Virus record (IMG/VR): IMGVR_UViG_3300030109_006070
Coordinates: 1-64,000 of that record
DNA length: 64,000 nucleotides
Origin: a virus
Direction: 5' to 3' (one strand)
Below are positions 37,375-51,398 of the stretch, one piece after another. A program made the position numbers and the translations under genes. Numbering within the stretch: the first letter of the stretch is position 1; every line of letters begins with the position of its first letter. The notes beneath the pieces were generated by a model. That model saw nothing but the letters and a program-made list of their open reading frames with translations. It did not search any database and was not told where the DNA came from.

Positions 37375-38223
37375 ATGAAAGTATTGTTTATATCTGACTT
37401 CACATTAGAACAGAGACAAGGGGGCGCTCAAGTCAGCAACAAAATTCTTATCGACAAAGGTAAAGAATTAGGTCTCGATATAAAAGAACACGATCATAAT
37501 TCTTCGATTACTGATTTTTTTTCACACTATGATCTAGTAATCAACTCTAATCTGGAAGCTATTAGTAAAATATCTCCAGAGAAAATGCCTTTAATATTAA
37601 AACTGCCTAACTCGTTTAGATTAGAGCATGATTCTTGCAGTTATTTACAAGATGACGTAAGGTTAGAATTATTTTCCGCAGCAAATAGAACTTTCTTTTT
37701 AAGCGATTACCATTATAGTTTTTTTAAAGATTTATACGGAGATTATTTTCATAATGTAGAAATAGTTTACGATGCAGTAGACACTTCAAAGTTCAAAAAA
37801 TCTTCTGAAGAAAAAAAACATGATGTTGTTTACTGTGGTTATTTACACCCCTTAAAAGGCTTAAATAATTTACTTAGGTTTGCTAGCCAAAACCCTGACA
37901 GGAATATAGACATATTTGGATGGGGAGAGATTTCTCCTGATAGGGTATTTAAAGATTATCCAAATATAAAATTTAATGGACCAAGGGATTATGCTGATAT
38001 TCCAGCTATTTTACAATCAGCTAAAGCTATTTTCCACCACCCAATCGTTAGGGAACCATTTTGTAGGATGGTAGGGGAAGCTATTTTATGTGGAGTGGAA
38101 GATATTATAGGTGACAAATCAAAAATAGGAGCTTATCTTGAGTTTGAGAAAGTGGGATATGATGCTTTTAAAAATAGCTGTGAAAACGCTCCGTCTTTAT
38201 TTTGGGAAAAGATATTAAAATGA
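37375..38223 (+). CDS. GT4-like glycosyltransferase
   Basis: GGAQ, G.LHPLKG, EPFCRMVGEA. Confidence 0.8.
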   Translation: MKVLFISDFTLEQRQGGAQVSNKILIDKGKELGLDIKEHDHNSSITDFFSHYDLVINSNLEAISKISPEKMPLILKLPNSFRLEHDSCSYLQDDVRLELFSAANRTFFLSDYHYSFFKDLYGDYFHNVEIVYDAVDTSKFKKSSEEKKHDVVYCGYLHPLKGLNNLLRFASQNPDRNIDIFGWGEISPDRVFKDYPNIKFNGPRDYADIPAILQSAKAIFHHPIVREPFCRMVGEAILCGVEDIIGDKSKIGAYLEFEKVGYDAFKNSCENAPSLFWEKILK

Positions 38224-39065
38224 ACTTTATTTGTGGTACTTATTTTAAACACCAATGTCGTCTACAGTTAAGTAGTTACAACGACCCCAGAACTTCTGAA
38301 TTCTTTCCTAAAGAAGATCAAGATTTAGATAATAATTTTGTTTTTTGCAAACCAGAACATCTTTCTTTGTTAGACACATATGTTAAAATAGGCTCTATTA
38401 AATTAGCTGAAAAATTTAATTTAGTTACGCATAACTCTGACACCAATTTCGGACAACAAGAAATTGATTATGTTTTAAATTTATTTCCCAATATAGATAC
38501 TTGGTATACTCAAAATCTTGTAGCTGCACACCCAAAGGTTAAACCAATACCTATTGGGATAGCCAATCCTAAATGGTCGCACGGGAACCAAGATAGGTTT
38601 GCTAAAATACAATTAAAAAAAGTAAGTAAATTCCAAGAGGTATATGTAAACTTTAACATCTCTACAAATCCAAGAGCTAGACAAGAGTGCTTGGCGAAGA
38701 TTGGGTTTCCTTACAATTTACAATTAGAAAAAAACTACCCAGACGCTTCTTCTATAAAAGCTCACGATAATTTTGTTGAATCAACCCAAGATAGGTATTT
38801 AAGCGACATGGCAGCTTCTTATTTTACCATGTCTCCAGTAGGTAACGGTGTAGATTGTCATAAAACATGGGAGGCCCTCTACATGAAAAGCATACCTATT
38901 GTCACCCGCTGGCACGGTGCAGAAGAATTTAAAAAATTGGGAATTCCCATTGTTATTATTGATGACTGGTCTGAATTTAAAGATGTAGACCTTTCAGCAG
39001 ATAACTATAAAAAAATATGGGGAGATTTCGACCCTAAGTGTCTTAATTTTAATTTATTTAAATAA
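38220..39065 (+). CDS. exostosin (GT47)-like glycosyltransferase
   Basis: SPVGNGVDCHKTWEALYMKSIPIV motif. Confidence 0.75.
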   Translation: MNFICGTYFKHQCRLQLSSYNDPRTSEFFPKEDQDLDNNFVFCKPEHLSLLDTYVKIGSIKLAEKFNLVTHNSDTNFGQQEIDYVLNLFPNIDTWYTQNLVAAHPKVKPIPIGIANPKWSHGNQDRFAKIQLKKVSKFQEVYVNFNISTNPRARQECLAKIGFPYNLQLEKNYPDASSIKAHDNFVESTQDRYLSDMAASYFTMSPVGNGVDCHKTWEALYMKSIPIVTRWHGAEEFKKLGIPIVIIDDWSEFKDVDLSADNYKKIWGDFDPKCLNFNLFK

Positions 39066-39799
39066 TGAAAAAAGTAACTTATATTTTAAACACTTGGCAA
39101 CGCCCCCATACTTTGAACGACCAAGTAAAAGCCATATCCAAACAAACAGTAAAATGTAATGAACTTATGATTTGGCAAAATATGCCAGAAAAAAAAGAAA
39201 ACTCTTTTATAATTCAAGGCGAAGAAAATAACTTAAAAGTTTCTCATAACAATTATAATTATGGAGTTTGGGCTAGATTTGCCTTCGCTCTTAATGCTAA
39301 ATCAGACTACATCTGCTTGTTAGATGATGACACAATCCCAGGACACAAATGGTCAGAGAATTGTATTGAGTCTATAGAAAAAGAAGACGGTTTATATGGA
39401 ACAGTAGGAGTAATTTTTAATGATAAAAAATATAAAGATTTTGAAAGGCATGGCTGGCCAAATCCAAACGAAGAAAAAAAACAAGTCGACATTGTGGGAC
39501 ACGCTTGGTTCTTCCACAGAGACTTATTAAGCGCTTTTTGGAGAGAAGTCAGCCCCCCCGTTAACAATATTTGCGGAGAAGATGTTCATTTTTCTTATTC
39601 AATCCAAAAATACTTAGGTCTTAATACATATGTACCACCTCACCCAAAAGACCGTTTATCTCTATGGGGTAGCCAACCTAAATCTGCTATGCAATATGGC
39701 GTGGATAATAACGCTATTTCCGTAAACTCTGACGGGATTGAATTTGGAGAATCTTTGACCCATTATTGCGACAAAGGATTTAAATTACTAAACGTATAA
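39065..39799 (+). CDS. GT-A/GT2-like glycosyltransferase
   Basis: LLDDDTIPG DxD motif, GEDVHFS. Confidence 0.8.
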   Translation: MKKVTYILNTWQRPHTLNDQVKAISKQTVKCNELMIWQNMPEKKENSFIIQGEENNLKVSHNNYNYGVWARFAFALNAKSDYICLLDDDTIPGHKWSENCIESIEKEDGLYGTVGVIFNDKKYKDFERHGWPNPNEEKKQVDIVGHAWFFHRDLLSAFWREVSPPVNNICGEDVHFSYSIQKYLGLNTYVPPHPKDRLSLWGSQPKSAMQYGVDNNAISVNSDGIEFGESLTHYCDKGFKLLNV

Positions 39800-40785
39800 T
39801 GAAAATTTTATTGTGTTTTGGGACTAGACCTGAATGGTTAAAAATAAAGCCACTCACTAAAGTTTTAGATAATTACCAACTTCTTTTTACTGGTCAGCAC
39901 ACAGATCTTTTAAAAGATGTAAAAGCCGACTATATTATCGAACAAAGCGATATCGGCAATAGGCTAGACCAAATCGTAGTGAGTTGTCTTGGTCAATTTC
40001 CTGCTGGGGATTTTGATTCTGTTTTAGTCCAAGGTGATACCGCTTCTGCTTTTGCTTGCGCTTTAGCCGCTTTTCATAGAGGTAAAAAAGTTTATTATCT
40101 AGAGGCTGGCCTTAGAACTTATAATCTTGATCACCCTTATCCAGAAGAAGGGTATAGACAAATGATATCGAGAATATCAGATGTTAATTTGTGTCCGACT
40201 ACCCTATCCAAAGACAATCTGCTGCATGAACTAGTAAAAGGAGAATCTCATGTGGTCGGAAACACAGTGTTGGATAATTTATTACCCTACAAAGAAAAGT
40301 GCGAATATCACAATAAGGTTCTTGTCACTTTGCACAGAAGAGAAAATCATAAACTTATTGATAGCTGGTTTAAACAGGTTAATTTGCTTGCTAAAAACAA
40401 CACGGATTTAGAATTTTTGTTACCACTACACCCTAACCCTAATGTTAAAAAACATAAACATTTATTAACTGACGTTAATGTTTTAGAACCCTTATCTCAC
40501 CCTATGCTTTTAGATATTTTAGCTAAATGTAAATTAGTTATTAGCGATAGCGGTGGGATACAAGAAGAGGGCAGCTTTTTAAACAAAAAGATTATAGTTT
40601 GTAGAGAAACAACAGAAAGGCCTGAAGGCAAAAAATCTGGGCATATCTTTATTTGTAAAAAACCCGAGAGGCTACATGGAATTTTCAATATCCTAAAATA
40701 TAATTACGAAATCGAAGAAGAGTGCCCATACGGAGACGGTTACTCTTCTTTAAAAATACTTAAATTACTCAATGAAGGACTTTAG
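39799..40785 (+). CDS. wecB: UDP-N-acetylglucosamine 2-epimerase (non-hydrolysing)
   Basis: GTRPE, TGQH, VQGDT, EAGLRT, PEE, TLHRREN, SDSGGIQEE, TERPEG, PYGDG. Confidence 0.95.
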   Translation: MKILLCFGTRPEWLKIKPLTKVLDNYQLLFTGQHTDLLKDVKADYIIEQSDIGNRLDQIVVSCLGQFPAGDFDSVLVQGDTASAFACALAAFHRGKKVYYLEAGLRTYNLDHPYPEEGYRQMISRISDVNLCPTTLSKDNLLHELVKGESHVVGNTVLDNLLPYKEKCEYHNKVLVTLHRRENHKLIDSWFKQVNLLAKNNTDLEFLLPLHPNPNVKKHKHLLTDVNVLEPLSHPMLLDILAKCKLVISDSGGIQEEGSFLNKKIIVCRETTERPEGKKSGHIFICKKPERLHGIFNILKYNYEIEEECPYGDGYSSLKILKLLNEGL

Positions 40786-42013
40786 AGAAGACATATCTAA
40801 TATTTATAAAAGGCTTAAAGAAAAAAAACCTTTTGCTTTTTCTAAATATGCAGACGGTGAGTACAAAATTCTAGTTAATGAACCAATAACTAATTGTGAC
40901 AATTGGACCTTTTGCCCCGAAACGCATAAGGCAGAGCAATCTCTTCTTTTAGAGTCTTTTAAATATAAACATCCTGATTATGTGGTCGGAATAAGCTGTC
41001 CATGCTGTCAACCAGTTGAGCATGTTGATTGGATGAAAAAAACTGCTCGGGCTAAAAATTTAACTTGGGCGAATTTATTTGTTAATAGCAACTACGATTT
41101 TTTTACTAGAGAAATTATTCCTCTTTTTTCTTCTTGGGATAAAGAAGTTTTTCTTTTTGCTAACGAAGAAGGCCTCGGCAAAGATTTGCCTTTTAATGTA
41201 AGTAAATATTTTCCCCTCAACATGAAAGCTTGGCAAGAGCCATTTCTTTCTCATTGGATAGAGATAGGAGAGAAAAGAGCGAAAAACACAGAAGGAGCAC
41301 TTTTTTTATTTTCAGGAGGCCCTCTTGGAAACATTTTAAGCTATAAACTGCATCAAGCAAACCCGTTAAACACTTACATAGACATAGGCTCTACGATAAG
41401 CCCTTGGATAGTTGGGAGCAATAGAGATTATCATCATGGAGGCGCATCTAGAAATCAAAAATGCACATGGAGCCAAAAAGCAGATTTAGATTTTTCTGTT
41501 TTTAAGGGTGGGTGGTCCTACATGGCTGAAGAGATGAATAACGCGGTTTCTTTACTCCCTAAACAAAAGTCTTTAGATGTTATGGAGTTTGGGTGCGGCG
41601 ATAGTTCTATTAAGTTATTTAACTTGCTGAATAATAAATGGGATGTTCGATACGAAGCTTTTGAATCTAATTCAAATTACATTATTGATAACTCAAAAAT
41701 TAACTGCACTCATTATAACGAAGCAGAAATTGAGAGTTTAGATATTGGAAATAAAAAATACGACTTTATACTAATTGATGGCCCGAATGGAGTTTTACGC
41801 AAACATTGGTATTCTAAAATTACCAACAATGTCAAAAGAGGCACTATTATTCTAATAGATGATTGGTGTCATTTCGAAGAATTTGAGGAGGCGCTTGTTA
41901 ATGATTTTGGATCTAAAATTAAATATGAAGTTATAGAAACGAGAAAAGAATTTGACATAAATTCAGCGCCGCATTTAGGATACAAAAGTTGGAAAATAGT
42001 AAAAGTTTTATGA
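40772..42013 (+). CDS. GT-D-fold-like glycosyltransferase fused to a SAM methyltransferase
   Basis: FSKYADGE and IDIGS in the N-part; MEFGCGDSS, LIDGP, ILIDD in the C-part. Confidence 0.65.
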   Translation: MKDFREDISNIYKRLKEKKPFAFSKYADGEYKILVNEPITNCDNWTFCPETHKAEQSLLLESFKYKHPDYVVGISCPCCQPVEHVDWMKKTARAKNLTWANLFVNSNYDFFTREIIPLFSSWDKEVFLFANEEGLGKDLPFNVSKYFPLNMKAWQEPFLSHWIEIGEKRAKNTEGALFLFSGGPLGNILSYKLHQANPLNTYIDIGSTISPWIVGSNRDYHHGGASRNQKCTWSQKADLDFSVFKGGWSYMAEEMNNAVSLLPKQKSLDVMEFGCGDSSIKLFNLLNNKWDVRYEAFESNSNYIIDNSKINCTHYNEAEIESLDIGNKKYDFILIDGPNGVLRKHWYSKITNNVKRGTIILIDDWCHFEEFEEALVNDFGSKIKYEVIETRKEFDINSAPHLGYKSWKIVKVL

Positions 42014-42696
42014 TTACGAATACGGTTTACTCCCACAGTTCTTATTTTGATGTCTTAGAAATTTTCTTGGATCGGTGGAATTTATTTTATGGTGAAGATA
42101 TAACTGTCTTCGCAGATAAAAAGTATAAAGACTACGACACTATTATCTATGATGATAAGTTAAGCTATACAGAAAGATTGATACAGTGTCTAGAAAACAC
42201 AGACTGCGATATATTGCTCTATCAACACGAAGATATGTTTTTGTATAAGGAGCCTAATTCTAAAAAACTAAAAGATTATGAAAAAATATTAACTGATAGC
42301 AACAATTCTTTTATTAGACTAACTAAAGCTGGAGCTTGTAATTTTTCGAAAAGCCATTTATGCGAAACCTTATTAAATATTTCTAAAGATTCAAAAAATT
42401 TTTTTGCTGTTCAATCGGCACTTTGGAAAAAAGTTGATTTAATTAAATTTTTAAAAGAAGCGGGGTCTTTAAGCATATGGGATCTTGAGTGGACATCTCC
42501 TCAAATAAATACAAAAGCATCTTTGTTTGGTTTGTCTCATTTCGATAATGAGCCTCCAAGGGGAGGGCACTTTGACTCAAACGTATGGCCTTATATTGCC
42601 ACAGCTATAAATAAAGGAAAATGGAATTTTGGAGAATATGAAAAAGAGTTTTCTGAAATAGATAAAGTTTTAATCAACAAAAGGCCAAGATATTAA
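42010..42696 (+). CDS. putative GT-A glycosyltransferase
   Basis: YTERL..CL, LYQHEDMFL, SIWDLE, AINKGKW; located in the glycan cluster. Confidence 0.55.
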   Translation: MITNTVYSHSSYFDVLEIFLDRWNLFYGEDITVFADKKYKDYDTIIYDDKLSYTERLIQCLENTDCDILLYQHEDMFLYKEPNSKKLKDYEKILTDSNNSFIRLTKAGACNFSKSHLCETLLNISKDSKNFFAVQSALWKKVDLIKFLKEAGSLSIWDLEWTSPQINTKASLFGLSHFDNEPPRGGHFDSNVWPYIATAINKGKWNFGEYEKEFSEIDKVLINKRPRY

Positions 42697-42697
42697 G

Positions 42698-43294
42698 ATG
42701 GAAGAGTGGTGTATTGTTGTTCAGGGTCCATCTGATTCTGTGTCAGAAATAAAAAGGTCAACCGAAGGTTATAAAACCATATTTTCTACATGGGTGGGTG
42801 ACGAGCCTAAGTATTCTAAAGACGACGATGTAATTTTTAATGAAAAACCCAAGGAGGTAGGAATCGGGAATTTGTATTATCAGCAGACATCGACAATGAA
42901 CGGTTTGCTAAAAGCGCAAAAGTTAGGTTTTAAAAATGTTTTTAAAACAAGAAGTGATTTTATACCTACGAACATAAATGAACTTATTAAGGGCTTTACC
43001 CATAAATTAAATTTATTCTTTTGGCACAATTATACTGGCGGTTATATTTGTGATTATTTTATGGCTGGAGAAACAGACTTAATGATAAAGTTGTGGAAAA
43101 AAAAGAGTGATGAAGGTTATAACTTCGCAGAACGCATGATAACCGAAAATTTCTTTGAAATGGGATTAAAAGAAGAAGACTTCGAATTTTATTTAAACAA
43201 ACTCAATGAAAAAAATGACATTTTCTGGACAAAATACGATAAATTTCTATCATCCTATAAGTCAGACGAGCTAGCTCTTGATTTTATAAAATGA
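42698..43294 (+). CDS. WavE-like lipopolysaccharide synthesis protein
   Basis: IVVQGP, IFSTW, N..YQ..ST.NGL, KTRSD. Confidence 0.7.
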   Translation: MEEWCIVVQGPSDSVSEIKRSTEGYKTIFSTWVGDEPKYSKDDDVIFNEKPKEVGIGNLYYQQTSTMNGLLKAQKLGFKNVFKTRSDFIPTNINELIKGFTHKLNLFFWHNYTGGYICDYFMAGETDLMIKLWKKKSDEGYNFAERMITENFFEMGLKEEDFEFYLNKLNEKNDIFWTKYDKFLSSYKSDELALDFIK

Positions 43295-44019
43295 ACAATA
43301 ATTACAACAAAGACGCATTTTCTTCAAATTCGGAAAGAAGATATAGCAACTGGGAAGGAACAGTGTTAAGCTATACTTTTGATTTTGTTAAAAAAATTGA
43401 GAACAAAATAGATCTAGAAAAAGTCAACCATGTTTTAGATATTGGCTCCAGAGACGCTTGTCAAAGCTTAGAGCTATCTGACTGGTTCCCGAATTCTACG
43501 GTTCATTGTTTTGAACCAGTTCCAGAAACTGCTGCTTGGTGTAAAAACAATATTAAAGATAGAAAAAATATTCTTTTTTATGAAAAAGCAATTGGTTCTA
43601 TTGACGGCAGCGTTAAGTTCCACAAAGTGGTCAATGGAAATATAGGAGCCAGCTCTCTATATCGCACTAATAACGAGCATCACCATGCGCGAACTTGGGC
43701 ACAAGAAGAAATTGAAGTTGAGTGTATTAGGGGAGATTCCTTTATAAAAGAAAACGCAATAAACCAAATTGATTTAATATGGATGGATGTACAAGGAGCG
43801 GAAATAGAAGTCTTAAACAGTTTTGGGAGCGACTTAGAAAACATTAAAGCTATTCATTCTGAAGTCGGATTGGGGAAAATATATGAAAAGTCGACTGTAA
43901 AAAATGAATTAATAAACTTTATGGAAGACAAAGGGTTTGTAGTCGAATGTTGCCTGTCGAATGCTTTAGGGATTGAAGAAGATATTGTCTTTGTAAATAA
44001 AAAATTTATTTTAAAATGA
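43291..44019 (+). CDS. FkbM-family methyltransferase
   Basis: LDIGS, FEPVP, IDLIWMDVQGAE. Confidence 0.9.
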   Translation: MNNNYNKDAFSSNSERRYSNWEGTVLSYTFDFVKKIENKIDLEKVNHVLDIGSRDACQSLELSDWFPNSTVHCFEPVPETAAWCKNNIKDRKNILFYEKAIGSIDGSVKFHKVVNGNIGASSLYRTNNEHHHARTWAQEEIEVECIRGDSFIKENAINQIDLIWMDVQGAEIEVLNSFGSDLENIKAIHSEVGLGKIYEKSTVKNELINFMEDKGFVVECCLSNALGIEEDIVFVNKKFILK

Positions 44020-44774
44020 AAATTGCTTTTTGTATATCAGGGTTATTTAAACCCAGCACCACACATTCCGCAGCGTATGAAAATAAATTTGCATATTTAA
44101 CTGAAAAGATAAAAGAATACAAGGCTGATACCTTTATATATTCTTTCTCTAAAGAAATCGAATCTGAAGTTGTTAACATCTTTGAACCAAAAGATTTTAA
44201 GTTCGAAGTACAGAAAGAATTTGAAGATAAAGTAGCCAATATAAATAGCATATTAGACAAAGGCACCGCGAAAAGAGTCTTTAGTATGTTTTATTCCAGA
44301 AAAAAGGTTTGCGAATTAAGAAAAAAGTTTGAAAAAGAAAATAAAACAAACTACGATGTGGTTGTTTTGTGCAGACCAGATTTAGGTTATGTATCTACCG
44401 AAAATTTTAAAATTCCAAATTTACATGAAATAGACGCTGATTATCTATATTCGATGTATTGGAATCAATTCAACGCAGGAATGCCAGATTGGTTTTTCAT
44501 TTCTAACCCTCAAAATATTGATTTTTTGTCGAGAATTTATGACAAGCTCCCATTATATTTAAAACATAACAGTGACTATAAAAAATCTATCACTAGTGGA
44601 TTTCCATACAGCAATTCAGAAAACAGATTTTCTCAAGAAATATTCAATAAATCTCCTCGGCATTCTGAAAAAATAGACGAAATATACATGTTAAACCAGC
44701 ATGTTTTGTTGAAATATTATTTATTAGAGAATGATAAATTTTCTTTAGACTTTTTAAAATTCTCTGACCATTGA
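44016..44774 (+). CDS. putative glycosyltransferase
   Basis: KIAFCISG, SMFYS, YDVVVLCRPDL, DWFF pattern typical of glycan-cluster proteins. Confidence 0.6.
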   Translation: MKIAFCISGLFKPSTTHSAAYENKFAYLTEKIKEYKADTFIYSFSKEIESEVVNIFEPKDFKFEVQKEFEDKVANINSILDKGTAKRVFSMFYSRKKVCELRKKFEKENKTNYDVVVLCRPDLGYVSTENFKIPNLHEIDADYLYSMYWNQFNAGMPDWFFISNPQNIDFLSRIYDKLPLYLKHNSDYKKSITSGFPYSNSENRFSQEIFNKSPRHSEKIDEIYMLNQHVLLKYYLLENDKFSLDFLKFSDH

Positions 44775-44775
44775 C

Positions 44776-45489
44776 ATGGATGACAAAATAACATTAAAAA
44801 ACATTGAGCTATCTAAAGTGTCTCAAGATTTATACGATGCCTTCAATAGCTTTATCTTGAGTGATGATACAAGACTATTCAATAAGCTTGTTTCAAGAGC
44901 CTTGTTATATAATGAAGTTAAGGATATCCCAGGAGATATAGTGGAATGCGGTGTTTTTAAAGGGACGGGCATGTATACATTTTTAAAACTAAAAAATATA
45001 TTCAACCCTAATTCATCAAAAAAAGTTTTAGGATTTGATTTCTTTAATACTAAAGAATTAATGGACTCTATTTCTGACGAAACAGACAAAAATACAATGG
45101 ATGTTTTATTCTCTGAAAGAGCCTTCGAACACAAAGTTTCATTTAAAGAAAATCTCGCTAATCAAATACGCAATCATAAATTTACAGACTCTGACTTTAT
45201 GTTAGTAGAAGGAGATATTTCTTCAACTACAAAAGAATTTTCAGAAAAAAATCCTGGGTTTAAGATATCTCTCTTATACATGGATGTTGATTTAGAGACC
45301 CCCACTTATAATGCCTTGAATAACCTTTGGGACAATATGACAAAAGGAGGATTAATTGTTTTTGATGAATACGGCTATCATAAATGGAGTGAGTCAAAAG
45401 GTGTTGATAAGTTTATTAAAGAAAAAAATTTAGACATAAAGTCTTTAAATTGTTTGTGTCCGACAGCTTATATAAAAAAACATGATTGA
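44776..45489 (+). CDS. TylF/MycF-family sugar O-methyltransferase
   Basis: GDIVECGVFKG, GFDFF, YMDVDL, GGLIVFDEY. Confidence 0.9.
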   Translation: MDDKITLKNIELSKVSQDLYDAFNSFILSDDTRLFNKLVSRALLYNEVKDIPGDIVECGVFKGTGMYTFLKLKNIFNPNSSKKVLGFDFFNTKELMDSISDETDKNTMDVLFSERAFEHKVSFKENLANQIRNHKFTDSDFMLVEGDISSTTKEFSEKNPGFKISLLYMDVDLETPTYNALNNLWDNMTKGGLIVFDEYGYHKWSESKGVDKFIKEKNLDIKSLNCLCPTAYIKKHD

Positions 45490-46840
45490 TTTTGTTATAT
45501 TTGATTTAGATGGAGTGTTGGTAGAGACCAAACACATTCATTTTGATGCTTTAAATAAAGCTCTGGCCGAAATTGATCCAAAATTTTGCATAAGCAAATC
45601 AGACCATTTGAATATCTTCGACGGTTTAAAAACCCGAGATAAGTTAAACATTTTAAGCGACTCTTTTGGCTTGCCACCACACACTCACGATAATATATGG
45701 CAAACCAAACAAAAAATTACTTCTGAAAAATTTTCCACTATCAAACCTGATTTAAAATTAATTGAGGCTTTTAATTGGTTGCGCTCTCGTAATATAAAGA
45801 TGGCGTGTTGCTCGAACGCCATCCGAAAATCTGTTTACGGAATGCTTTGTCGCGCTGGCTTAATTGAATTCTTTGATTATATCTTATCCAATGAAGATGT
45901 AGAAAATTCAAAACCTCACCCTCAAATGTATTGGGAGGCTATGTCGGCTTTTAAGGCCAACCCAGAAAATACATTAATTATTGAAGATTCTCCTAATGGC
46001 CTGTTAGCCGCTCAACGTAGTGGCGCTAATGTCTGGAGAGTAAAAAGCCCACAAGAAATAACAATAAAAACTTTAACATCGCAGTTAAGCGGTAACAAAA
46101 AACTTATGACTACTCGTTGGCAAGATTCAAATTTAAACGTCTTAATCCCTATGGCGGGTGCGGGTAGCAGGTTCCAAGCCGCAGGATATACCTTCCCGAA
46201 GCCATTAATAGAAGTCAGAGGTCAGCCGATGATTCAAACAGTTGTGGAAAACCTTAATTGTGAAAGCCCTCATACTTTTATTGTCCAAAAATCTCATCGT
46301 AACAAATATAATTTAGACACTCTTCTAAATTTAATTTCTCCCGATTGCCATATTATAGAAGCAGACGGGATAACCGAAGGAGCGGCTTGCACTACACTGT
46401 TAAGTAAAGATGTCATCAATAACGATCAACCTCTTTTGATCGCTAATTCAGATCAATACGTAGATTGGGATGCTAGCGAATTTTTGTATAAAATGCAGGA
46501 ACAAGATGCTGACGCTGGAATCCTTACCTTTAAATCAACCCACCCCAAATGGTCTTTTGCTAAAGTTGACGATAACGGTAGCGTCACTGAAGTAGCGGAG
46601 AAAAATCCTATCTCTGATATAGCTACAGTTGGCATCTATTACTGGAAAAAAGGTTCTGATTATGTAAAATATACAGAGCAAATGATAGAAAAAAACATAA
46701 GACATAACAATGAGTTCTATGTATGCCCTGTTTTTAATGAGGCTATTAAAGACGGTAAAGTAGTTAAAACCTTTAATATAGAAAAGATGTGGGGTTTAGG
46801 AACCCCCGAAGATTTAGATTTTTTCTTAAAAAGCAATTAA
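45482..46840 (+). CDS. HAD phosphatase fused to a sugar-phosphate nucleotidyltransferase
   Basis: FDLDGVL, SKPHP, IEDS; IPMAGAGSRF..PKPLI, GAACT, NSDQ, NEFYV.P, LGTPEDL. Confidence 0.9.
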   Translation: MIDFVIFDLDGVLVETKHIHFDALNKALAEIDPKFCISKSDHLNIFDGLKTRDKLNILSDSFGLPPHTHDNIWQTKQKITSEKFSTIKPDLKLIEAFNWLRSRNIKMACCSNAIRKSVYGMLCRAGLIEFFDYILSNEDVENSKPHPQMYWEAMSAFKANPENTLIIEDSPNGLLAAQRSGANVWRVKSPQEITIKTLTSQLSGNKKLMTTRWQDSNLNVLIPMAGAGSRFQAAGYTFPKPLIEVRGQPMIQTVVENLNCESPHTFIVQKSHRNKYNLDTLLNLISPDCHIIEADGITEGAACTTLLSKDVINNDQPLLIANSDQYVDWDASEFLYKMQEQDADAGILTFKSTHPKWSFAKVDDNGSVTEVAEKNPISDIATVGIYYWKKGSDYVKYTEQMIEKNIRHNNEFYVCPVFNEAIKDGKVVKTFNIEKMWGLGTPEDLDFFLKSN

Positions 46841-46844
46841 ATTT

Positions 46845-47561
46845 ATGACATTCTTAATTCCTTGCGCTGGTTTAGGCGCTAGATTCCATTCTAAAATCCC
46901 CAAGCCTCTTATTGAGGTTCTAGATGGTCGCCCGATGCTTGAGCTTGTATTAGAAAACTTAAGACAGCGAGAGGATGATCGGTTTATCTGCTGTATTCTC
47001 AAAGAACATGATTTAAAATTTAATCTTTCTCAAGAAATTAAAAAGTTTGCTCCTTATGTAGACATTTGCGTTGTAGAAAAACTAAAAGATGGCCCAGCTT
47101 CTACTTGTTATGAGGCGAAAGATCTAGTAGATCAGGACGATGAATTAATCATTATAAACTGCGATCAAATTATCGAAGATTTTAATATCGAGGCGTTTTT
47201 AAGATTTGCTCATTCACACGATTATGACGGCGTTTTAGGAACATTCTTTTCTCGCTCTCCTAAAAACAGTTATGTTAAATTAAACGATGACGGCCTTGTC
47301 GTCGAAGCTCAAGAGAAAAAAGTATTGAGCGAATACGCGACAAATGGGCTACATTATTGGAAGAAAACTTCCTATTTCTTTGATTCTTATCGTGTTATGG
47401 TCGAAAAAAACGCTCGCACTTTAAATGAATTTTATGTAGCTCCTTCATATAATTATTTAATTAATGATGGAAAAAGAATTGGAGCTTATCACTTTAACGA
47501 GCATTATCCAATTGGAATACCAAGTGATTTAAATTATTATAAAAACTTTAAAACAAAATGA
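46845..47561 (+). CDS. second sugar-phosphate nucleotidyltransferase
   Basis: IPCAGLGARF..PKPLI, GPAST, NCDQ, NEFYVAP, IGIPSDL. Confidence 0.88.
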   Translation: MTFLIPCAGLGARFHSKIPKPLIEVLDGRPMLELVLENLRQREDDRFICCILKEHDLKFNLSQEIKKFAPYVDICVVEKLKDGPASTCYEAKDLVDQDDELIIINCDQIIEDFNIEAFLRFAHSHDYDGVLGTFFSRSPKNSYVKLNDDGLVVEAQEKKVLSEYATNGLHYWKKTSYFFDSYRVMVEKNARTLNEFYVAPSYNYLINDGKRIGAYHFNEHYPIGIPSDLNYYKNFKTK

Positions 47562-48760
47562 AAAGCTTATTTAGAGACAAAGTGGACGAAAACAAATATT
47601 ACATCGCCACCTATCACCTTAAGTCCTCTCCTTCTTCGACTTTACGCGAAGCTGCATTTAATTTGGCAGTAGGCCAATCGATTGGAAACCCTGCGAAACG
47701 AGCAGAAATGGAAACGGAAGAAATGTTTGAAAATCATGCTTGTATTGTTTTAGCTGATGAATCCGAACTAGAAAAGAAAGTGGAAGGTGATGTTTCTATT
47801 GCATTCCCTGAAGCAAATATTGATTTTGCCACAGACGGTATTTCTCAATTACTTGTGCAAACAATGGGGGGGCAGATGGATATTGACGTAATCGAAAAAT
47901 GTAGGATGCTTGATATTAAATTTACACCTACTATGCTATCGTGCCTTAAGGGTCCAATTATTGGACTTAAAGAAATTAAAGAGCACTGCAAAATTCCTGA
48001 TGATCAGGTAATTTTAGGAGGAATTACTAAGCCTAAAATTGGTCTTACTCCTGAATTACATTTAGAGCTAGTGAAAAGACTTGTCGATGGAGGTTGTAAC
48101 TTTATTAAAGAAGATGAAATCTTATCGGGAGCTGCTCACTGCCCACTAGAAAAAAGAGTTGAGCTAGTATCTAACTATTTAGCGAATTGCGGATCTCCTG
48201 TATTTTATTGTGTTTCCATCCATTCAGACCCCGCTTATTTGCTTAAGCGTGTCCAACAAGTATATGACTTAGGAGGTAACGGAATTCATGTAAATTTTCA
48301 TTGCGGCCTCGGAGCTTATAAATCGATAAGGGAGACTGAATTACCTCTTTTGATGCATTACCAAAAAAGCGGAGATAGAGTATTAAACCATCATTCTCAT
48401 CGCTACAGCATTGAACCCTCTTTGATGTTTAAGCTTGTTTCGTTATCTGGCTGCGGAACCCTTCACGCAGGTATGATTGGAGGCTATCTTGAAAGCGGAG
48501 ATGAAGAAGTTAAAAATATAATGTCAATTCTTAACTCTCAAAATTCAGTTCCAGCTTTGAGCTGTGGTATGCACCCAGGTTTAGTTAAACATATCCAAAA
48601 AACTGTAGGCCATGCTAACTGGATGGCCAATGTTGGAGGAGCAATAACTTCGCACCCTATGGGGACTGCCGCAGGAGCAAGAGCAATGAAACAAGCAATA
48701 ACAGAAGATTACGGCAAAGAGTTTGGTGTCGCAGCCACGAAATGGGGAATTGAAATGTGA
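47558..48760 (+). CDS. RuBisCO-like protein (form IV)
   Basis: TKPKIGL, FIKEDE, LHAG, SCGMHP, GGAITSHPMG; positions equivalent to E60, H294 and K334 appear substituted. Confidence 0.92.
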   Translation: MKSLFRDKVDENKYYIATYHLKSSPSSTLREAAFNLAVGQSIGNPAKRAEMETEEMFENHACIVLADESELEKKVEGDVSIAFPEANIDFATDGISQLLVQTMGGQMDIDVIEKCRMLDIKFTPTMLSCLKGPIIGLKEIKEHCKIPDDQVILGGITKPKIGLTPELHLELVKRLVDGGCNFIKEDEILSGAAHCPLEKRVELVSNYLANCGSPVFYCVSIHSDPAYLLKRVQQVYDLGGNGIHVNFHCGLGAYKSIRETELPLLMHYQKSGDRVLNHHSHRYSIEPSLMFKLVSLSGCGTLHAGMIGGYLESGDEEVKNIMSILNSQNSVPALSCGMHPGLVKHIQKTVGHANWMANVGGAITSHPMGTAAGARAMKQAITEDYGKEFGVAATKWGIEM

Positions 48761-48773
48761 GGTTAATATAATT

Positions 48774-49097
48774 ATGAAACTTTTAGATATAGAAGAAATG
48801 AAAGGGGGCTGGTTTGTCGGAGACTTTGATCCCAGCGCTTATAAAACAAAAGATTTTGAGGTAGGATATAAATTCCACAAAAAGGGCGAGCCTTGGGATA
48901 AGCACTATCATGAAAAATGCACTGAAATTAATTTTTTGATGAAAGGGGTGATGAAGATGCGCGGTCAAATCTTAAAGAGTGGCCAAATATTCATCATGGA
49001 ACCTTTTGAGGTAGCTGATCCCGAGTTCATCGAAGATTGTCATGTAGTTGTTGTCAAAACTAATAGTGAAAAAGGAGACAAAATTTGTGTCGAATGA
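48774..49097 (+). CDS. cupin-fold protein (possible sugar isomerase/epimerase)
   Basis: GWFVGDF, HYH...EIN, VVVKT....DK. Confidence 0.75.
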   Translation: MKLLDIEEMKGGWFVGDFDPSAYKTKDFEVGYKFHKKGEPWDKHYHEKCTEINFLMKGVMKMRGQILKSGQIFIMEPFEVADPEFIEDCHVVVVKTNSEKGDKICVE

Positions 49098-49510
49098 TTG
49101 TAATATCACACAGAGGAAACTTATCTGGCAAAGACCCAGACAACGAAAATAGGCCCGAACAAATTTATAAAGTTTTAAATTTGGGTTACCACTGTGAAGT
49201 AGATATTTGGAAAAAAGACGGAGCTTTCTACTTGGGCCATGATGAACCCATGTATGAAATAGACTCAAATTTATTGAGCAATAAAAATTTGTGGATTCAC
49301 GCTAAAAATCTAGAAGCTTTGCACTCTTTGCCGACAAGCTTAAGATATTTTTGGCATCAAACAGACGACTACACTTTAACATCTGATAATTTTATTTGGA
49401 CTTTCCCCGACAAAGAAATTTGCGAAAGGTCAATCATTGTTGATAATAACAAAAACTGGAAAGATAAAAACTATAAATGTTTAGGTGTTTGCACTGATTG
49501 GGTTTTATGA
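49094..49510 (+). CDS. GDPD/PI-PLC-like phosphodiesterase
   Basis: ISHRGN, EN, EVDIW, LGHD, WIHAKN, GVCTD. Confidence 0.8.
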   Translation: MIVISHRGNLSGKDPDNENRPEQIYKVLNLGYHCEVDIWKKDGAFYLGHDEPMYEIDSNLLSNKNLWIHAKNLEALHSLPTSLRYFWHQTDDYTLTSDNFIWTFPDKEICERSIIVDNNKNWKDKNYKCLGVCTDWVL

Positions 49511-50352
49511 AAAAAATTGTTGTTACGGGAGGAGCGGGATTTGTTGGCTCTCATTTATGTAAAAAATTGGTGGATTTAGGTCATCATGTTACATCAATTG
49601 ATAATTATTCGACAGGATCTTTTAACAATCATGTAACAGGAGCTTTTTATTTTAACCGAGATATTTCTAATATGAAGGAAATTTCGGGACTCTTTGAGAA
49701 TGTAGATGTTGTTTTTCATTTGGCTGCTCTTGCTCGTATACAGCCCTCTTTTCATTTTCCCTCTGAATACTTTCAGTCAAACGTGCAGGGGACTTTTAAT
49801 TTATGTGAAATTTGCAAAAAAAATAATATTTCCATAATTTTTTCAGGTTCTTCCTCCCACCATAGCGGTAAGTTTAAAAATCCTTATACGTTCATGAAAG
49901 ACGTTTCCGAGGAAATGCTGATTTTGTATCATAAAATATATGGCCTAAATCAATCTATCGCTAGATTTTATAATGTTTATGGCCCGAATCACATAGAAGT
50001 CGGTGAATATTCTACAGTTATAGCTAGATGGGATAAAGCTCATAGAGAAAAAAAATCAATTACTATTTATGGGGACGGGAGCAAGGAAAGAGATTTTACT
50101 CATGTCGAAGATATTGTAGAAGGATTAATTAAAATATGGCAAACTCAAAGCTATGGGCACACTTTTGAATTAGGCAGAGGTAGAAAATTTTCTTTAAAGG
50201 AAGTTGCGGAGATGTATAGACCTTCTTTTGGAATTGTATATGAACCAGACAAAAAAGGAGAAGCGCAAAGCGTTCTGTGCGATAGCTCTTTAGCGAAGCA
50301 AATCTTGAACTGGGAACCTAGATTTAATTTAGAAGATTGGATTTTAAAATGA
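49507..50352 (+). CDS. NAD-dependent nucleotide-sugar epimerase/dehydratase
   Basis: TGGAGFVGSHL, FHLAA, PYTFMK, RFYNVYGP, RDFTHV. Confidence 0.92.
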   Translation: MKKIVVTGGAGFVGSHLCKKLVDLGHHVTSIDNYSTGSFNNHVTGAFYFNRDISNMKEISGLFENVDVVFHLAALARIQPSFHFPSEYFQSNVQGTFNLCEICKKNNISIIFSGSSSHHSGKFKNPYTFMKDVSEEMLILYHKIYGLNQSIARFYNVYGPNHIEVGEYSTVIARWDKAHREKKSITIYGDGSKERDFTHVEDIVEGLIKIWQTQSYGHTFELGRGRKFSLKEVAEMYRPSFGIVYEPDKKGEAQSVLCDSSLAKQILNWEPRFNLEDWILK

Positions 50353-51398
50353 AAAAAATTATTATTACAGGAGTAACGGGTCAAGATGGTAGCCTTATGG
50401 CAGACTATCTTTTAAAAAACACAAAACACACAATTATTGGTGGAGCTAGGAGGCTTAGTGTTAAAAATCACAAAAATATCAAACATCTGGAAGACAATGA
50501 AAGATTTTTTCTTATAGACCTCGATGTAACAGACCCTCAAAATACAGACAGGGTTTTGGCTGAACATAAGCCTGATTATTTTATTAATTTTGCGGCCAAC
50601 TCTTTTGTAGGTAGCAGTTGGGAAATGCCGACTCAACACATGCAAACAAATGCGATGGCTGTATTGCATCAGCTAGAGGCCATTCGTAGACACGCTCCGA
50701 AGTGCCGATATTACAACGCTGGTAGCTCTGAAGAGTTTGGTGATGTTGTAGAGTCTCCACAGACAGAATCTCATCCACTGCGCCCTAGAAGCCCATATGG
50801 AGCCTCTAAATGCGCCGCTAGACATTTAGTTAAAGTCTATAGAGATTCTTACAATATTTACGCTGTACAAGGCTTTTTATTTAATCATGAAGGAGTCAGA
50901 AGGGGGGAAGAGTTCGTTACTCGTAAAATTACTAAAAATGTAGCTAGAATTCTCGTAGAGTATGAAACAGGACAAGTTACAAAACCACTAGAATTGGGTA
51001 ATCTTGACTCCAAAAGAGATTGGAGCGATGCAGAAGATTTCGTAAGAGGTATATGGCTGATGCTCAATCAAAACAGAGAAAACGCAAAAGATTATGTTTT
51101 ATCTTCTAATGAAACGCATACAATTAGAGAATTTGTAGAAGAAGCTTTCAACTTTGCTGGTTTTCATAGGAGCATCTGTCGATGGGACGGTGAAGGTTTA
51201 GAAGAAAAATACTTTCATGGTCGTGACCTTCTTGTAGAAATTAATAAAGACTTTTACAGACCAGCGGAAGTTGATTTATTGTGGGGAGACTCTAAAAAAG
51301 CTCGCGAAGAGCTTGGTTGGGAACCTAAAACCTCTTTTGTCCAATTGATCAAAAAAATGATTGACGTAGATGTGGCGGCGGTTTACCCTTACCCGTGA
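50349..51398 (+). CDS. gmd: GDP-mannose 4,6-dehydratase
   Basis: TGVTGQDG, SSEEFG, PRSPYGASK, FNHE..RRGEEFVTRKI, LGNLD.KRDW, YRPAEV. Confidence 0.95.
   Translation: MKKIIITGVTGQDGSLMADYLLKNTKHTIIGGARRLSVKNHKNIKHLEDNERFFLIDLDVTDPQNTDRVLAEHKPDYFINFAANSFVGSSWEMPTQHMQTNAMAVLHQLEAIRRHAPKCRYYNAGSSEEFGDVVESPQTESHPLRPRSPYGASKCAARHLVKVYRDSYNIYAVQGFLFNHEGVRRGEEFVTRKITKNVARILVEYETGQVTKPLELGNLDSKRDWSDAEDFVRGIWLMLNQNRENAKDYVLSSNETHTIREFVEEAFNFAGFHRSICRWDGEGLEEKYFHGRDLLVEINKDFYRPAEVDLLWGDSKKAREELGWEPKTSFVQLIKKMIDVDVAAVYPYP
51361..51389 (+). promoter_or_regulatory. sigma70-type promoter inside the gmd 3' end, leaderless for the 51395 gene
   Basis: TTGACG-N17-TACCCT-N5-GTG. Confidence 0.5.

What the first reader, a model, noticed from the sequence alone, without database searches (positions are those of the whole stretch)
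45482..49510. Phage RuBisCO-like protein in a biosynthetic sugar-nucleotide cassette (HAD-NTPase fusion, NTP-transferase, RLP, cupin, phosphodiesterase)
The 47558-48760 product keeps the RuBisCO barrel residues K175/K177 (TKPK), the carbamate/Mg motif (KEDE), H327 and the phosphate loops (SCG, GG). By eye it has Q for E60, Q for H294 and Y for loop-6 K334, so it is a form IV enzyme and not a carboxylase. Characterised RLPs act in methionine/MTA salvage or catabolism of sugar acids and branched sugars, and no salvage genes are present here. Instead it overlaps a nucleotidyltransferase gene inside a glycan-building operon. Inference: an undescribed anabolic route in which the RLP isomerises, epimerises or rearranges a ketose phosphate, HAD trims a phosphate, two transferases activate the product and the cupin or phosphodiesterase edits it, giving a rare ketose or branched sugar donor. 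This is the strongest novel-system candidate in the window.
Basis: partly seen in the sequence, partly recalled or inferred. Interest (0 to 1): 0.88.

Follow-up and report, generated by a model that had tools for sequence, protein, structure and literature searches.

The report
Phage RuBisCO-like enzyme in sugar-activation cassette
An uncultured phage carries an intact relative of RuBisCO that cannot fix CO2 and that, here and in phages, SAR11, Legionella and tiny archaea, sits beside a nucleotide-attaching enzyme in surface-sugar gene clusters, which suggests an untested glycan-building job for this enzyme family.

Summary
Window 47558-48760 encodes an intact 400-aa RuBisCO large-subunit homologue (Pfam 2.7e-30). 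It keeps the enolisation and Mg centre (K175, K177, K201, D203, E204) and one phosphate site. It lacks E60, N123, H294, R295, H298 and K334, so it is not a carboxylase. It reaches no NCBIfam equivalog for form II/III RuBisCO, MtnW or OiaX.

It belongs to the published but uncharacterised 'Form IV-like' phage/Beckwithbacteria clade (Jaffe et al. 2019, PMC6389311, passages read). This scan has met the same cassette on other DNA many times.

In 84 dereplicated loci, a nucleotidyltransferase lies within 1.5 kb in 78, a GDPD-type protein within 6 kb in 62, and a small cupin in 43. An RLP-nucleotidyltransferase fusion exists.

The HAD-nucleotidyltransferase fusion and the mini-phosphodiesterase also occur, without RLP or cupin, in cultured cyanophages S-CAM9 and S-PRM1. 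In Legionellaceae the RLP-nucleotidyltransferase pair sits beside LicD. That suggests transfer of a phospho-linked unit.

Substrate and product remain unknown. Novelty: a new variant of a known kind.

The parts
47558..48760 (+). RuBisCO-like protein (400 aa), 'Form IV-like' clade. Enolisation and Mg centre kept, carboxylation residues lost.
   Evidence: Pfam PF00016 2.7e-30 and PF02788 1.4e-5. No NCBIfam equivalog reached. Residue mapping. 1862 homologues.
46845..47561 (+). S-type nucleotidyltransferase (238 aa), ATGA-overlapped with the RLP. Belongs to the family of PDB 4EVW.
   Evidence: PF00483 2.1e-13. Family profile vs 4evw 8.6e-32 over the full length; characterised enzymes match only the N-terminal part. 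The S-type clade is almost always next to or fused with the cupin.
48774..49097 (+). Small metal cupin (107 aa from ATG 48774) with an HxH...E motif, phosphomannose-isomerase-like fold.
   Evidence: Alignment A1 invariants H44, H46, E51. Model pLDDT 95. Best folds 7zvm/7zvy. Profile hit to 7zvm at 1.3e-4. Fused to the nucleotidyltransferase in giant-virus-type contigs.
49094..49510 (+). Miniature GDPD-like phosphodiesterase (138 aa from ATG 49094) that keeps the HR, EN, ExD and GHD motifs.
   Evidence: Alignment A2 invariants H9, R10, E21, N22, E38, D40, H52, H72, K74. Model pLDDT 97. Top folds are all GDPDs. Profile vs 7e0v 2.8e-4. Replaced by full-length GDPD (PF03009 2.4e-21) in 10 cellular loci.
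45482..46840 (+). HAD-IA (beta-phosphoglucomutase-like) plus H-type nucleotidyltransferase fusion (452 aa). Probably a separable sub-module.
   Evidence: HAD_2 2e-32 and NTP_transferase 4.9e-14. 53% identical over the full length to S-CAM9 gp067 in a locus without RLP. H-type clade.
49498..51398 (+). SDR epimerase/dehydratase (49498-50352) and GDP-mannose 4,6-dehydratase (50337-51398). Frequent but not obligatory neighbours.
   Evidence: PF01370 5.6e-44; PF16363 2.6e-105; TIGR01472 gmd 323.8 bits, below its 415 cut-off. The GMD/SDR cluster is present in 30 of 84 loci.
37375..45489 (+). Upstream glycan island: GT1, RXYLT1_C-like, GT2, UDP-GlcNAc 2-epimerase, three unknowns, FkbM methyltransferase, DUF7796-like protein (44016-44774), TylF methyltransferase.
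   Evidence: DUF7796-like cluster present in 28 of 84 loci.

Best explanation
Shown: the phage carries a working-looking, non-carboxylating RuBisCO-like protein of the 'Form IV-like' clade. It is translationally coupled to a dedicated nucleotidyltransferase inside a glycan-building island.

Inferred mechanism:
1. The RLP uses its retained carbamyl-lysine/Mg enolisation machinery on a 1-phospho-2-keto sugar. It isomerises or epimerises that sugar into an uncommon sugar phosphate.
2. The neighbouring nucleotidyltransferase converts the product to an NDP-linked donor.
3. Transferases of the island put the unit on a surface glycan. This may be as a phosphodiester-linked unit, as in lic (LicC/LicD) or CDP-ribitol systems.

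Accessory parts:
- The small cupin is a partner of the S-type nucleotidyltransferase. It most likely acts as an aldose-ketose isomerase or epimerase.
- The mini-GDPD and the HAD-nucleotidyltransferase fusion form a second, separable sub-module. It also works without the RLP.
For: Enzyme state:
- The protein is intact.
- An active-site signature is invariant in 85 of 85 family members that are only 30-89% identical overall: K158, K160, K184, D186, E187, Q269, H303, Y310, S335-C336-G337 and G360.

Linkage to the nucleotidyltransferase:
- It lies within 1.5 kb of the RLP in 78 of 84 dereplicated loci and within 6 kb in 80 of 84. These span 42 viral and 42 cellular loci.
- The cellular loci include Pelagibacter, CPR bacteria, DPANN archaea, Legionella, Nonomuraea and Azospirillum.
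- P0124 is an in-family RLP-nucleotidyltransferase fusion.
- The two genes overlap by ATGA in the window.

Cupin:
- It is next to or fused with the S-type nucleotidyltransferase.
- Its best folds are phosphomannose isomerases.

GDPD:
- A GDPD-type protein is present in 62 of 84 loci.
- It is full-length and paired with a second nucleotidyltransferase in DPANN loci.

LicD:
- A LicD-family gene (6.3e-44) sits upstream of the RLP-nucleotidyltransferase pair in 4 of 4 Legionellaceae loci. It is immediately adjacent and divergent in three of them; in L119 it lies about 2 kb away with two genes between.

Context:
- Neighbours are glycosyltransferases, methyltransferases, GMD, DegT, WavE and Bac_transf.
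- No salvage families appear among the 25 commonest of 150 neighbour proteins.
Against: - No substrate, product or nucleotide is known.
- Characterised nucleotidyltransferases match the partner only in the N-terminal nucleotide-binding part. Sugar-1-phosphate and alcohol-phosphate specificity therefore cannot be told apart.
- No conserved kinase, mutase or aldolase that would feed the RLP was found.
- LicD is seen only in Legionellaceae. Those four loci are close relatives and count as about one event.
- One locus with 8-kb flanks (L077) has the RLP and no nucleotidyltransferase.
- The cupin and GDPD are absent from many loci, so they cannot both be essential steps.
- Gene linkage alone does not give the order of reactions. 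The RLP could act on the NDP-linked compound instead.
Confidence: 0.6

Rival explanations
1. Salvage-type RLP. The enzyme isomerises 5-methylthioribulose-1-P or 5-deoxyribulose-1-P, as in the Rhodospirillum rubrum MTA-isoprenoid shunt, where an RLP has a cupin neighbour (recalled, not from a call). The glycan genes are then merely adjacent.
For: An RLP next to a small cupin recalls that shunt (recalled). Jaffe et al. speculate on a DeepYkr origin for the phage clade. Weak N-terminal IspD-like hits of the nucleotidyltransferases (0.0016 and 0.004).
Against: - The window cassette holds no IF-2B (MtnA), class II aldolase or kinase family, and none is among the 25 commonest neighbour families.
- MtnW models score far below cut-off (122.5 vs 409; 92.6 vs 513.6).
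- The clade is separate from the MtnW-labelled group in the tree.
- The cupin is missing from 41 of 84 loci, while the nucleotidyltransferase is nearly universal.
- No DeepYkr reference sequence was available, so the direct comparison was not made.
Confidence: 0.1
2. Composite island. Nucleotidyltransferase, cupin, HAD/PMM, GMD and SDR are an ordinary GDP-mannose to GDP-6-deoxyhexose route (cupin as PMI, nucleotidyltransferase as ManC). The RLP is an unrelated passenger or has a regulatory or structural role.
For: The cupin's best folds are phosphomannose isomerases. The GMD/SDR cluster is in 30 of 84 loci and PMM in 7 viral loci. Type II PMI-GMP fusions of nucleotidyltransferase and cupin are known (recalled). 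HAD-nucleotidyltransferase and mini-GDPD exist without the RLP in cyanophages.
Against: - The RLP-nucleotidyltransferase pair persists where GMD, PMM and cupin are absent, for example in Legionellaceae and many DPANN loci.
- An RLP-nucleotidyltransferase fusion exists.
- The nucleotidyltransferase reaches no ManC model and matches mannose-1-P guanylyltransferases only at 1e-8 over the N-terminal part.
- The RLP active site is invariant across the family, which argues for a conserved catalytic role.
Confidence: 0.15
3. Nucleotide or pentose-bisphosphate metabolism. The RLP acts on ribulose-1,5-bisphosphate or a related bisphosphate from nucleotide breakdown during infection, for example by epimerising it. 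A CbbY-like HAD then dephosphorylates the product. There is no dedicated glycan role.
For: The HAD domain matches CbbY at 1.4e-9, among many HAD-IA hits. CPR and DPANN carriers commonly use RuBP in the AMP pathway. Other RuBisCO clades are fused to IF-2B isomerases (P0163 and P0175).
Against: - The distal phosphate ligands R295 and H298 are replaced by K and D.
- The HAD is rare beside the RLP.
- No AMP phosphorylase or IF-2B family is among the common neighbours.
- Linkage is to a nucleotidyltransferase and to glycan genes.
Confidence: 0.08

Closest known systems
'Form IV-like' RuBisCO-like proteins of phages and Beckwithbacteria (Jaffe, Castelle, Dupont, Banfield 2019, Mol Biol Evol; PMC6389311, passages read)
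   Same: Highly divergent RLPs on phage contigs from IMG/VR plus Beckwithbacteria. Key residues differ from canonical form IV, and function was left open. This family includes 72 IMG/VR loci and a Beckwithbacteria MAG locus, L087.
   Different: The passages I read do not mention the nucleotidyltransferase, cupin or GDPD neighbourhood, or carriers such as SAR11, Legionella and DPANN. Their sequences and supplementary genome maps could not be compared directly because supplements are closed.
DK-MTP-1-P enolase MtnW/YkrW and other characterised RLPs (OiaX decarboxylase, R. rubrum MTRu-1-P isomerase)
   Same: Same fold, with the carbamyl-lysine/Mg enolisation centre and the P1 phosphate site retained.
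   Different: Scores are far below every NCBIfam cut-off. It forms a separate clade. Its own invariant signature is GQS..NP, Q269-K270, Y310 and SCG. Its context is anabolic glycan genes rather than salvage or catabolism.
lic-type phospho-unit decoration (LicC cytidylyltransferase plus LicD transferase) and CDP-ribitol systems (ISPD/FKTN/FKRP/RXYLT1); pathway logic recalled
   Same: An NTP_transferase-fold enzyme sits beside a LicD-family transferase in Legionellaceae. An RXYLT1_C-like protein is in the window island. A phosphodiesterase-type partner would fit phosphodiester-linked units.
   Different: There is no kinase or reductase; the RLP takes the place of the supplier of the phospho-substrate. 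LicD was not found among the 20 window cassette proteins or in the other loci by jackhmmer. LicC matches the nucleotidyltransferase profile only at 5.7e-5 over 62 N-terminal residues.
PDB 4EVW, nucleoside-diphosphate-sugar pyrophosphorylase of Vibrio cholerae RC9 (structural genomics; function unknown as far as I recall)
   Same: Full-length family member of the partner nucleotidyltransferase (8.6e-32; 2.3e-21 for the H-type domain).
   Different: No substrate is known for it, and its genomic context was not examined.

Membership tests
RuBisCO large-subunit superfamily | N-terminal and TIM-barrel catalytic domains (PF02788 and PF00016) above the gathering scores | tested here: met
   106.1 bits vs 30.1 and 25.7 bits vs 20.7. 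98 PDB RuBisCO/RLP chains match at E<=1e-3.
Bona fide carboxylase (forms I-III) | K334, E60, N123, H294, R295 and H298 present (residue roles recalled from the RuBisCO literature) | tested here: not met
   Y310, G39, G105, Q269, K270 and D273 at these positions (alignments). Unchanged or nearly so in 85 members. rubisco_III scores 153.6 vs its 497 cut-off.
Enolising RLP (form IV in the broad sense) | K175, K177, carbamylatable K201, Mg ligands D203/E204, and P1-site glycines | tested here: met
   K158, K160, K184, D186, E187 and G337 are invariant; G360 is invariant and G361 is kept in 83 of 85.
MtnW / YkrW DK-MTP-1-P enolase | NCBIfam equivalog score over the cut-off | tested here: not met
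   PRK09549 122.5 vs 409; TIGR03332 92.6 vs 513.6. A true member, P0238 (445.7), sits in another clade.
OiaX 3-oxo-isoapionate-4-P decarboxylase | NCBIfam NF042437 over 700 bits | tested here: not met
   113.2 bits. Plasmid-borne OiaX proteins are 27% identical.
DeepYkr MTRu-1-P 1,3-isomerase (R. rubrum type) | Clusters with R. rubrum RLP; salvage genes adjacent | not testable with these tools
   No reference sequence or model was available. Salvage families are absent from the cassette and from the 25 commonest neighbour families.
'Form IV-like' clade of Jaffe et al. 2019 | Divergent RLPs on phage contigs grouping with Beckwithbacteria | tested here: inconclusive
   The family holds 72 IMG/VR loci and a Beckwithbacteria locus, which matches the description. 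Their sequences were not compared directly.
GDPD (PF03009) for 49094-49510 | Pfam match; full (beta/alpha)8 barrel; HR, ExD and H catalytic set | tested here: inconclusive
   No Pfam hit. N-terminal profile match to 7e0v at 2.8e-4. Top folds are GDPDs at TMq 0.57. The catalytic motifs are invariant. The protein has 138-141 aa against about 240.
Cupin-type phosphosugar isomerase for 48774-49097 | Cupin barrel with a metal site; likeness to characterised PMI | tested here: inconclusive
   Cupin fold with HxH...E. 7zvm/7zvy are the best matches but modest (E 8e-5, 25% identity). Quercetinase and other cupins score similarly by sequence.
Beta-phosphoglucomutase (HAD-IA) for 45482-46100 | NCBIfam TIGR01990 / TIGR02009 over the cut-off | tested here: not met
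   70.5 vs 189.4 and 90.9 vs 153.35. Only general HAD-IA membership holds (HAD_2 2e-32).

The most novel reading that the evidence does not exclude
This branch of the RuBisCO superfamily is the committed step of an undescribed, widely mobile pathway shared by phages, giant-virus-like contigs, SAR11, Legionella, CPR and DPANN. The RLP, rather than a kinase or reductase, makes the phospho-substrate. A private nucleotidyltransferase family (the 4EVW family) activates it as NDP-X. X-phosphate is then attached to surface glycans through a phosphodiester by LicD-type or other transferases, and GDPD-type enzymes service that linkage. Phages would use the pathway to repaint the host surface or their own virions.
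Probability: 0.35. Interest if true: 0.8.

Novelty: new variant of a known kind. Interest (0 to 1): 0.6.

Why it matters
As far as I recall the literature, every characterised RuBisCO-like protein works in sulfur or methionine salvage or in sugar-acid catabolism. An anabolic, glycan-building role would be a new function for one of the most studied folds.

The family is large: 1862 homologues at E<=1e-5. It also sits in hypervariable surface-glycan islands of abundant organisms such as SAR11 and their phages, where surface chemistry decides who infects whom.

Cultured carriers exist: three Legionella species, Nonomuraea rosea and Azospirillum oleiclasticum. That makes the question directly testable.

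The practical caveat is that many metagenome studies score such genes as viral 'rbcL' carbon-fixation genes. This one cannot fix CO2.

Tried and rejected
Carboxylase reading: rejected on residues and on NCBIfam scores.

Membership in MtnW or OiaX: rejected.

GenBank phages: tblastn with the RLP found no match at 1e-5. No isolate could therefore be used for the RLP itself. The tool warns that records near the window's genome may be left out.

Plasmids: only distant RLPs (at most 28% identity, e.g. OiaX) were found, so no link to a known glycan came from there.

Physical complex of RLP and S-type nucleotidyltransferase: complex prediction gave 'no answer' (score 0.00, mark 0.32). This is neither for nor against binding.

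DUF7796-like neighbour (44016-44774; present in 28 of 84 loci):
- No PDB relative by profile (best E 0.16).
- Only DUF7796 in Pfam, in 11 of 28 members.
- The Atlas gives only viral hypothetical clusters.
- Its role is left open.

Search for a conserved kinase, mutase or aldolase:
- Twenty cluster representatives and a census of 150 neighbour proteins showed none among the common families.
- The census lists only the 25 commonest of 106 families, so singletons are not excluded.

LicD outside Legionellaceae: jackhmmer over all locus ORFs plus 20 window cassette proteins found only the 4 Legionellaceae genes.

Literature:
- Searches for RLP with virus and nucleotidyltransferase returned 0 papers.
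- IV-GOS returned 1 irrelevant review.
- RLP with giant virus returned 1 paper, seen only in the listing.
- RLP with nucleotide sugar or capsule returned none holding the RLP term.
- RLP with cytidylyltransferase returned 2 unrelated papers.
- RLP with SAR11 and RLP with O-antigen gave nothing relevant.
- None of these showed a described function. The library lacks most subscription journals.
- Tabita 2007 (PMC2168653) is not held, so my idea that the clade equals 'IV-GOS' is untested.

Rows dropped before counts:
- Of 122 loci (72 viral, 50 cellular), 6 had no RLP ORF called because of truncated matches. They were left out before dereplication to 84 groups at 90% RLP identity.

Full report
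WHAT IS THERE

The window is part of a 72-kb uncultured virus record. It carries a terminase, ribonucleotide reductase, a UvsX-like recombinase, a DnaB-like helicase, a DnaE-like polymerase and a Lon-like protease.

From about 37.4 to 51.4 kb all genes run on the + strand and form a glycan island. In order they are:
- GT1, an RXYLT1_C-like protein, GT2 and UDP-GlcNAc 2-epimerase;
- three unknowns;
- an FkbM methyltransferase, a DUF7796-like protein and a TylF methyltransferase;
- the five genes of the finding;
- an SDR epimerase and a GDP-mannose 4,6-dehydratase.

The five genes are tightly coupled:
- The nucleotidyltransferase and RLP genes overlap by ATGA.
- The cupin starts 13 nt after the RLP stop, at ATG 48774.
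- The phosphodiesterase-like gene starts at ATG 49094, in an ATGA overlap with the cupin stop.

THE RLP

The 400-aa product is a real RuBisCO large-subunit homologue (PF00016 2.7e-30, PF02788 1.4e-5; 98 solved RuBisCO/RLP chains match).

Alignments to solved enzymes and to 84 dereplicated relatives show which residues are kept:
- K175, K177, K201, D203, E204, H327, S379, G381 and G403 are kept in all 85 sequences; G404 in 83 of 85.

The carboxylation set is replaced by a signature that is itself invariant or nearly so:
- E60 is G39, followed by Q40.
- T65 and W66 are N44 and P45.
- N123 is G105, followed by Q106.
- H294 is Q269.
- R295 is K270 (83 of 85).
- H298 is D273 (80 of 85).
- K334 is Y310.
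- G380 is C336.

The protein reaches no NCBIfam equivalog:

| Model | Score (bits) | Cut-off (bits) |
|---|---|---|
| rubisco_III | 153.6 | 497 |
| MtnW (PRK09549) | 122.5 | 409 |
| OiaX | 113.2 | 700 |

In a FastTree of 103 full-length representatives it sits in a 22-row clade with SH-like support 100. That clade is separate from three groups that I labelled by NCBIfam scans of 20 members: MtnW-type (P0238, 445.7 bits), OiaX-like (P0202, 524 bits) and near-form-III (P0158, 444.9 bits). The tree is a quick one without bootstraps, and its deep branches are weak.

WHAT IS ALREADY KNOWN

Jaffe et al. 2019 (PMC6389311; I read the passages returned) reported about 80 non-redundant RLP-related sequences on putative phage contigs plus two from Beckwithbacteria. 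They named the group 'Form IV-like' and left the function open.

The present family fits that description. It includes 72 IMG/VR loci and a Beckwithbacteria MAG locus (L087). I could not compare sequences directly or see their supplementary maps.

My seven literature searches found no paper that gives this clade a function or links it to a nucleotidyltransferase.

Earlier notes of this scan describe the same cassette on other genomes. They gave me the Jaffe reference, which I then checked.

NEIGHBOURHOODS

I called ORFs in 72 viral and 50 cellular loci and compared them with the window's proteins. Then I dereplicated loci at 90% RLP identity. Of the 122 loci, 116 had an RLP ORF, and these gave 84 groups, 42 viral and 42 cellular. 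Neighbours within 6 kb were clustered.

A nucleotidyltransferase lies within 1.5 kb in 78 of 84 loci and within 6 kb in 80 of 84. The four misses are:
- two very short contigs;
- one locus where my ORF picker hid a likely gene (L113);
- one real exception with 8-kb flanks (L077).

Other neighbours:

| Neighbour | Loci of 84 |
|---|---|
| Mini-GDPD | 52 |
| Full-length GDPD (PF03009 2.4e-21), all cellular, DPANN archaea in the loci I inspected | 10 more (62 in all) |
| Cupin, fusions included | 43 |
| GMD/SDR cluster | 30 |
| DUF7796-like | 28 |
| DegT | 15 |
| FkbM | 10 |
| PMM (all viral) | 7 |

P0124 (667 aa) is an RLP-nucleotidyltransferase fusion that is 46% identical to the window RLP. 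In giant-virus-type contigs the cupin is fused to the nucleotidyltransferase.

THE CASSETTE IS COMPOSITE

A tree of 98 nucleotidyltransferase domains labelled by their neighbours separates four types:
- An S-type clade of 37 rows includes window 46845-47561. It is almost always next to or fused with the cupin.
- An H-type clade of 13 rows includes the C-terminal domain of the window's HAD fusion. It lies next to the RLP or mini-GDPD in loci without a cupin.
- In DPANN and one group of Pelagibacter loci there are two further types. One is always next to the RLP and the other next to the GDPD.

The window is unusual in holding both S and H types.

The full HAD-nucleotidyltransferase fusion is rare beside the RLP. 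I saw it in the window, L005, L007/L008 and L079.

That fusion is 53% identical over its whole length to a gene of the cultured cyanophages S-CAM9 and S-PRM1. There it sits with a second HAD and a mini-GDPD homologue (39% identity), but without an RLP or cupin (no RLP anywhere in the GenBank phage set). I looked in detail at 2 of the 20 phage records that matched.

So HAD-nucleotidyltransferase plus mini-GDPD is a sub-module that can work without the RLP.

THE ACCESSORY PROTEINS

The cupin model is confident (pLDDT 95). Its best solved relatives are the small phosphomannose isomerases of Thermococcus (7zvm and 7zvy: E 8e-5, TM 0.67, 25% identity). The family keeps an HxH...E metal motif.

The 141-aa protein folds confidently (pLDDT 97) into an eight-stranded barrel with few outer helices. 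Its top solved matches are all GDPDs, though weak (E 1.4e-3, TMq 0.57). The GDPD catalytic motifs HR, EN, ExD and GHD are invariant.

The nucleotidyltransferase family has one solved member, 4EVW (8.6e-32). I know of no assigned substrate for it. All characterised enzymes (ManC, RmlA, HddC, inositol-1-P and phosphocholine cytidylyltransferases) match only the N-terminal nucleotide-binding part. The class of substrate is therefore open.

A NEW CLUE

In all four Legionellaceae loci (three named Legionella species and a Tatlockia MAG), a LicD-family gene (PF04991, 6.3e-44) lies upstream of the RLP-nucleotidyltransferase pair. In three loci it is immediately adjacent and divergent. In L119 it is about 2 kb away with two genes between.

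LicD-family enzymes transfer a phospho-alcohol from a CDP-linked donor (phosphocholine, ribitol phosphate; recalled knowledge). Read with the recurrent GDPD-type partner, this suggests that the activated product is passed on as a phosphodiester-linked unit, and that the RLP takes the place of the kinase or reductase that feeds such systems.

The four loci are close kin and count as roughly one observation. LicD was not found in the other loci or among the 20 window cassette proteins.

MECHANISM

Shown:
- an intact enolisation centre;
- loss of the carboxylation residues;
- near-obligate linkage, and occasional fusion, to a private nucleotidyltransferase in glycan islands.

Inferred:
1. The RLP enolises a 1-phospho-2-keto sugar and isomerises or epimerises it.
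2. The cupin, where present, interconverts aldose and ketose forms or epimers for the S-type enzyme.
3. The nucleotidyltransferase forms NDP-X.
4. Island transferases install X or X-phosphate on a surface glycan.

The substrate, the nucleotide, the order of the RLP and nucleotidyltransferase steps, and the target glycan are unknown. No conserved feeder enzyme was found.

VERDICT

The unit is narrower than proposed (RLP plus nucleotidyltransferase, with optional cupin), and part of it is a separate sub-module. The clade is already in print, and the scan has reported the cassette repeatedly. The functional question remains open and is testable in cultured carriers.

Noticed in passing
L125:4341-7501 (Synechococcus phage S-CAM9) and L126 (S-PRM1): Cultured cyanophages carry a HAD-nucleotidyltransferase fusion, a second HAD and a mini-GDPD homologue but no RLP. 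The tblastn match to the mini-GDPD spans 7043-7486, whereas the annotated CDS starts at 7214 (S-CAM9) or 7187 (S-PRM1). The annotated genes may therefore be too short or frameshifted.
   Followed up: partly
P0170 (583 aa): A TIR_2 domain (3.3e-13) is fused to the N-terminus of a different, distant RLP (29% identity). A TIR-RuBisCO-like fusion might be a defence-related oddity.
   Followed up: no
P0163 and P0175 (726 and 742 aa): IF-2B family (ribose-1,5-bisphosphate or MTR-1-P isomerase type) fused to a RuBisCO with good N- and C-terminal domain scores. This is a fused AMP-pathway pair in another clade.
   Followed up: no
window 38202-39065: Protein with an RXYLT1 C-terminal domain (33 bits vs 27 cut-off). 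In animals RXYLT1 adds xylose to ribitol phosphate (recalled). It is odd in a phage island and possibly relevant to a polyol-phosphate glycan. Only 1 of 72 viral loci had a weak relative.
   Followed up: partly
window 21207-27836: A single 2209-aa ORF on the + strand, not examined.
   Followed up: no
window 58449-61004 and 61016-63466: The replicative polymerase is DnaE-like (Pol III alpha type, at most 33% identical to phage isolates). It is followed by an 816-aa Lon-like ATP-dependent protease (phrog_4871, 1.7e-207).
   Followed up: partly
window 44016-44774 and 28 of 84 related loci: A DUF7796-like protein family, almost entirely viral, often lies directly upstream of the nucleotidyltransferase. 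It has invariant R120, D122 and D158 and no solved relative by sequence. It is a candidate transferase for the unknown donor.
   Followed up: partly
L102, L107, L111, L124 (DPANN archaea): A full-length GDPD gene is directly paired with a second nucleotidyltransferase a few kb from the RLP-nucleotidyltransferase pair. This suggests two parallel activation steps.
   Followed up: partly
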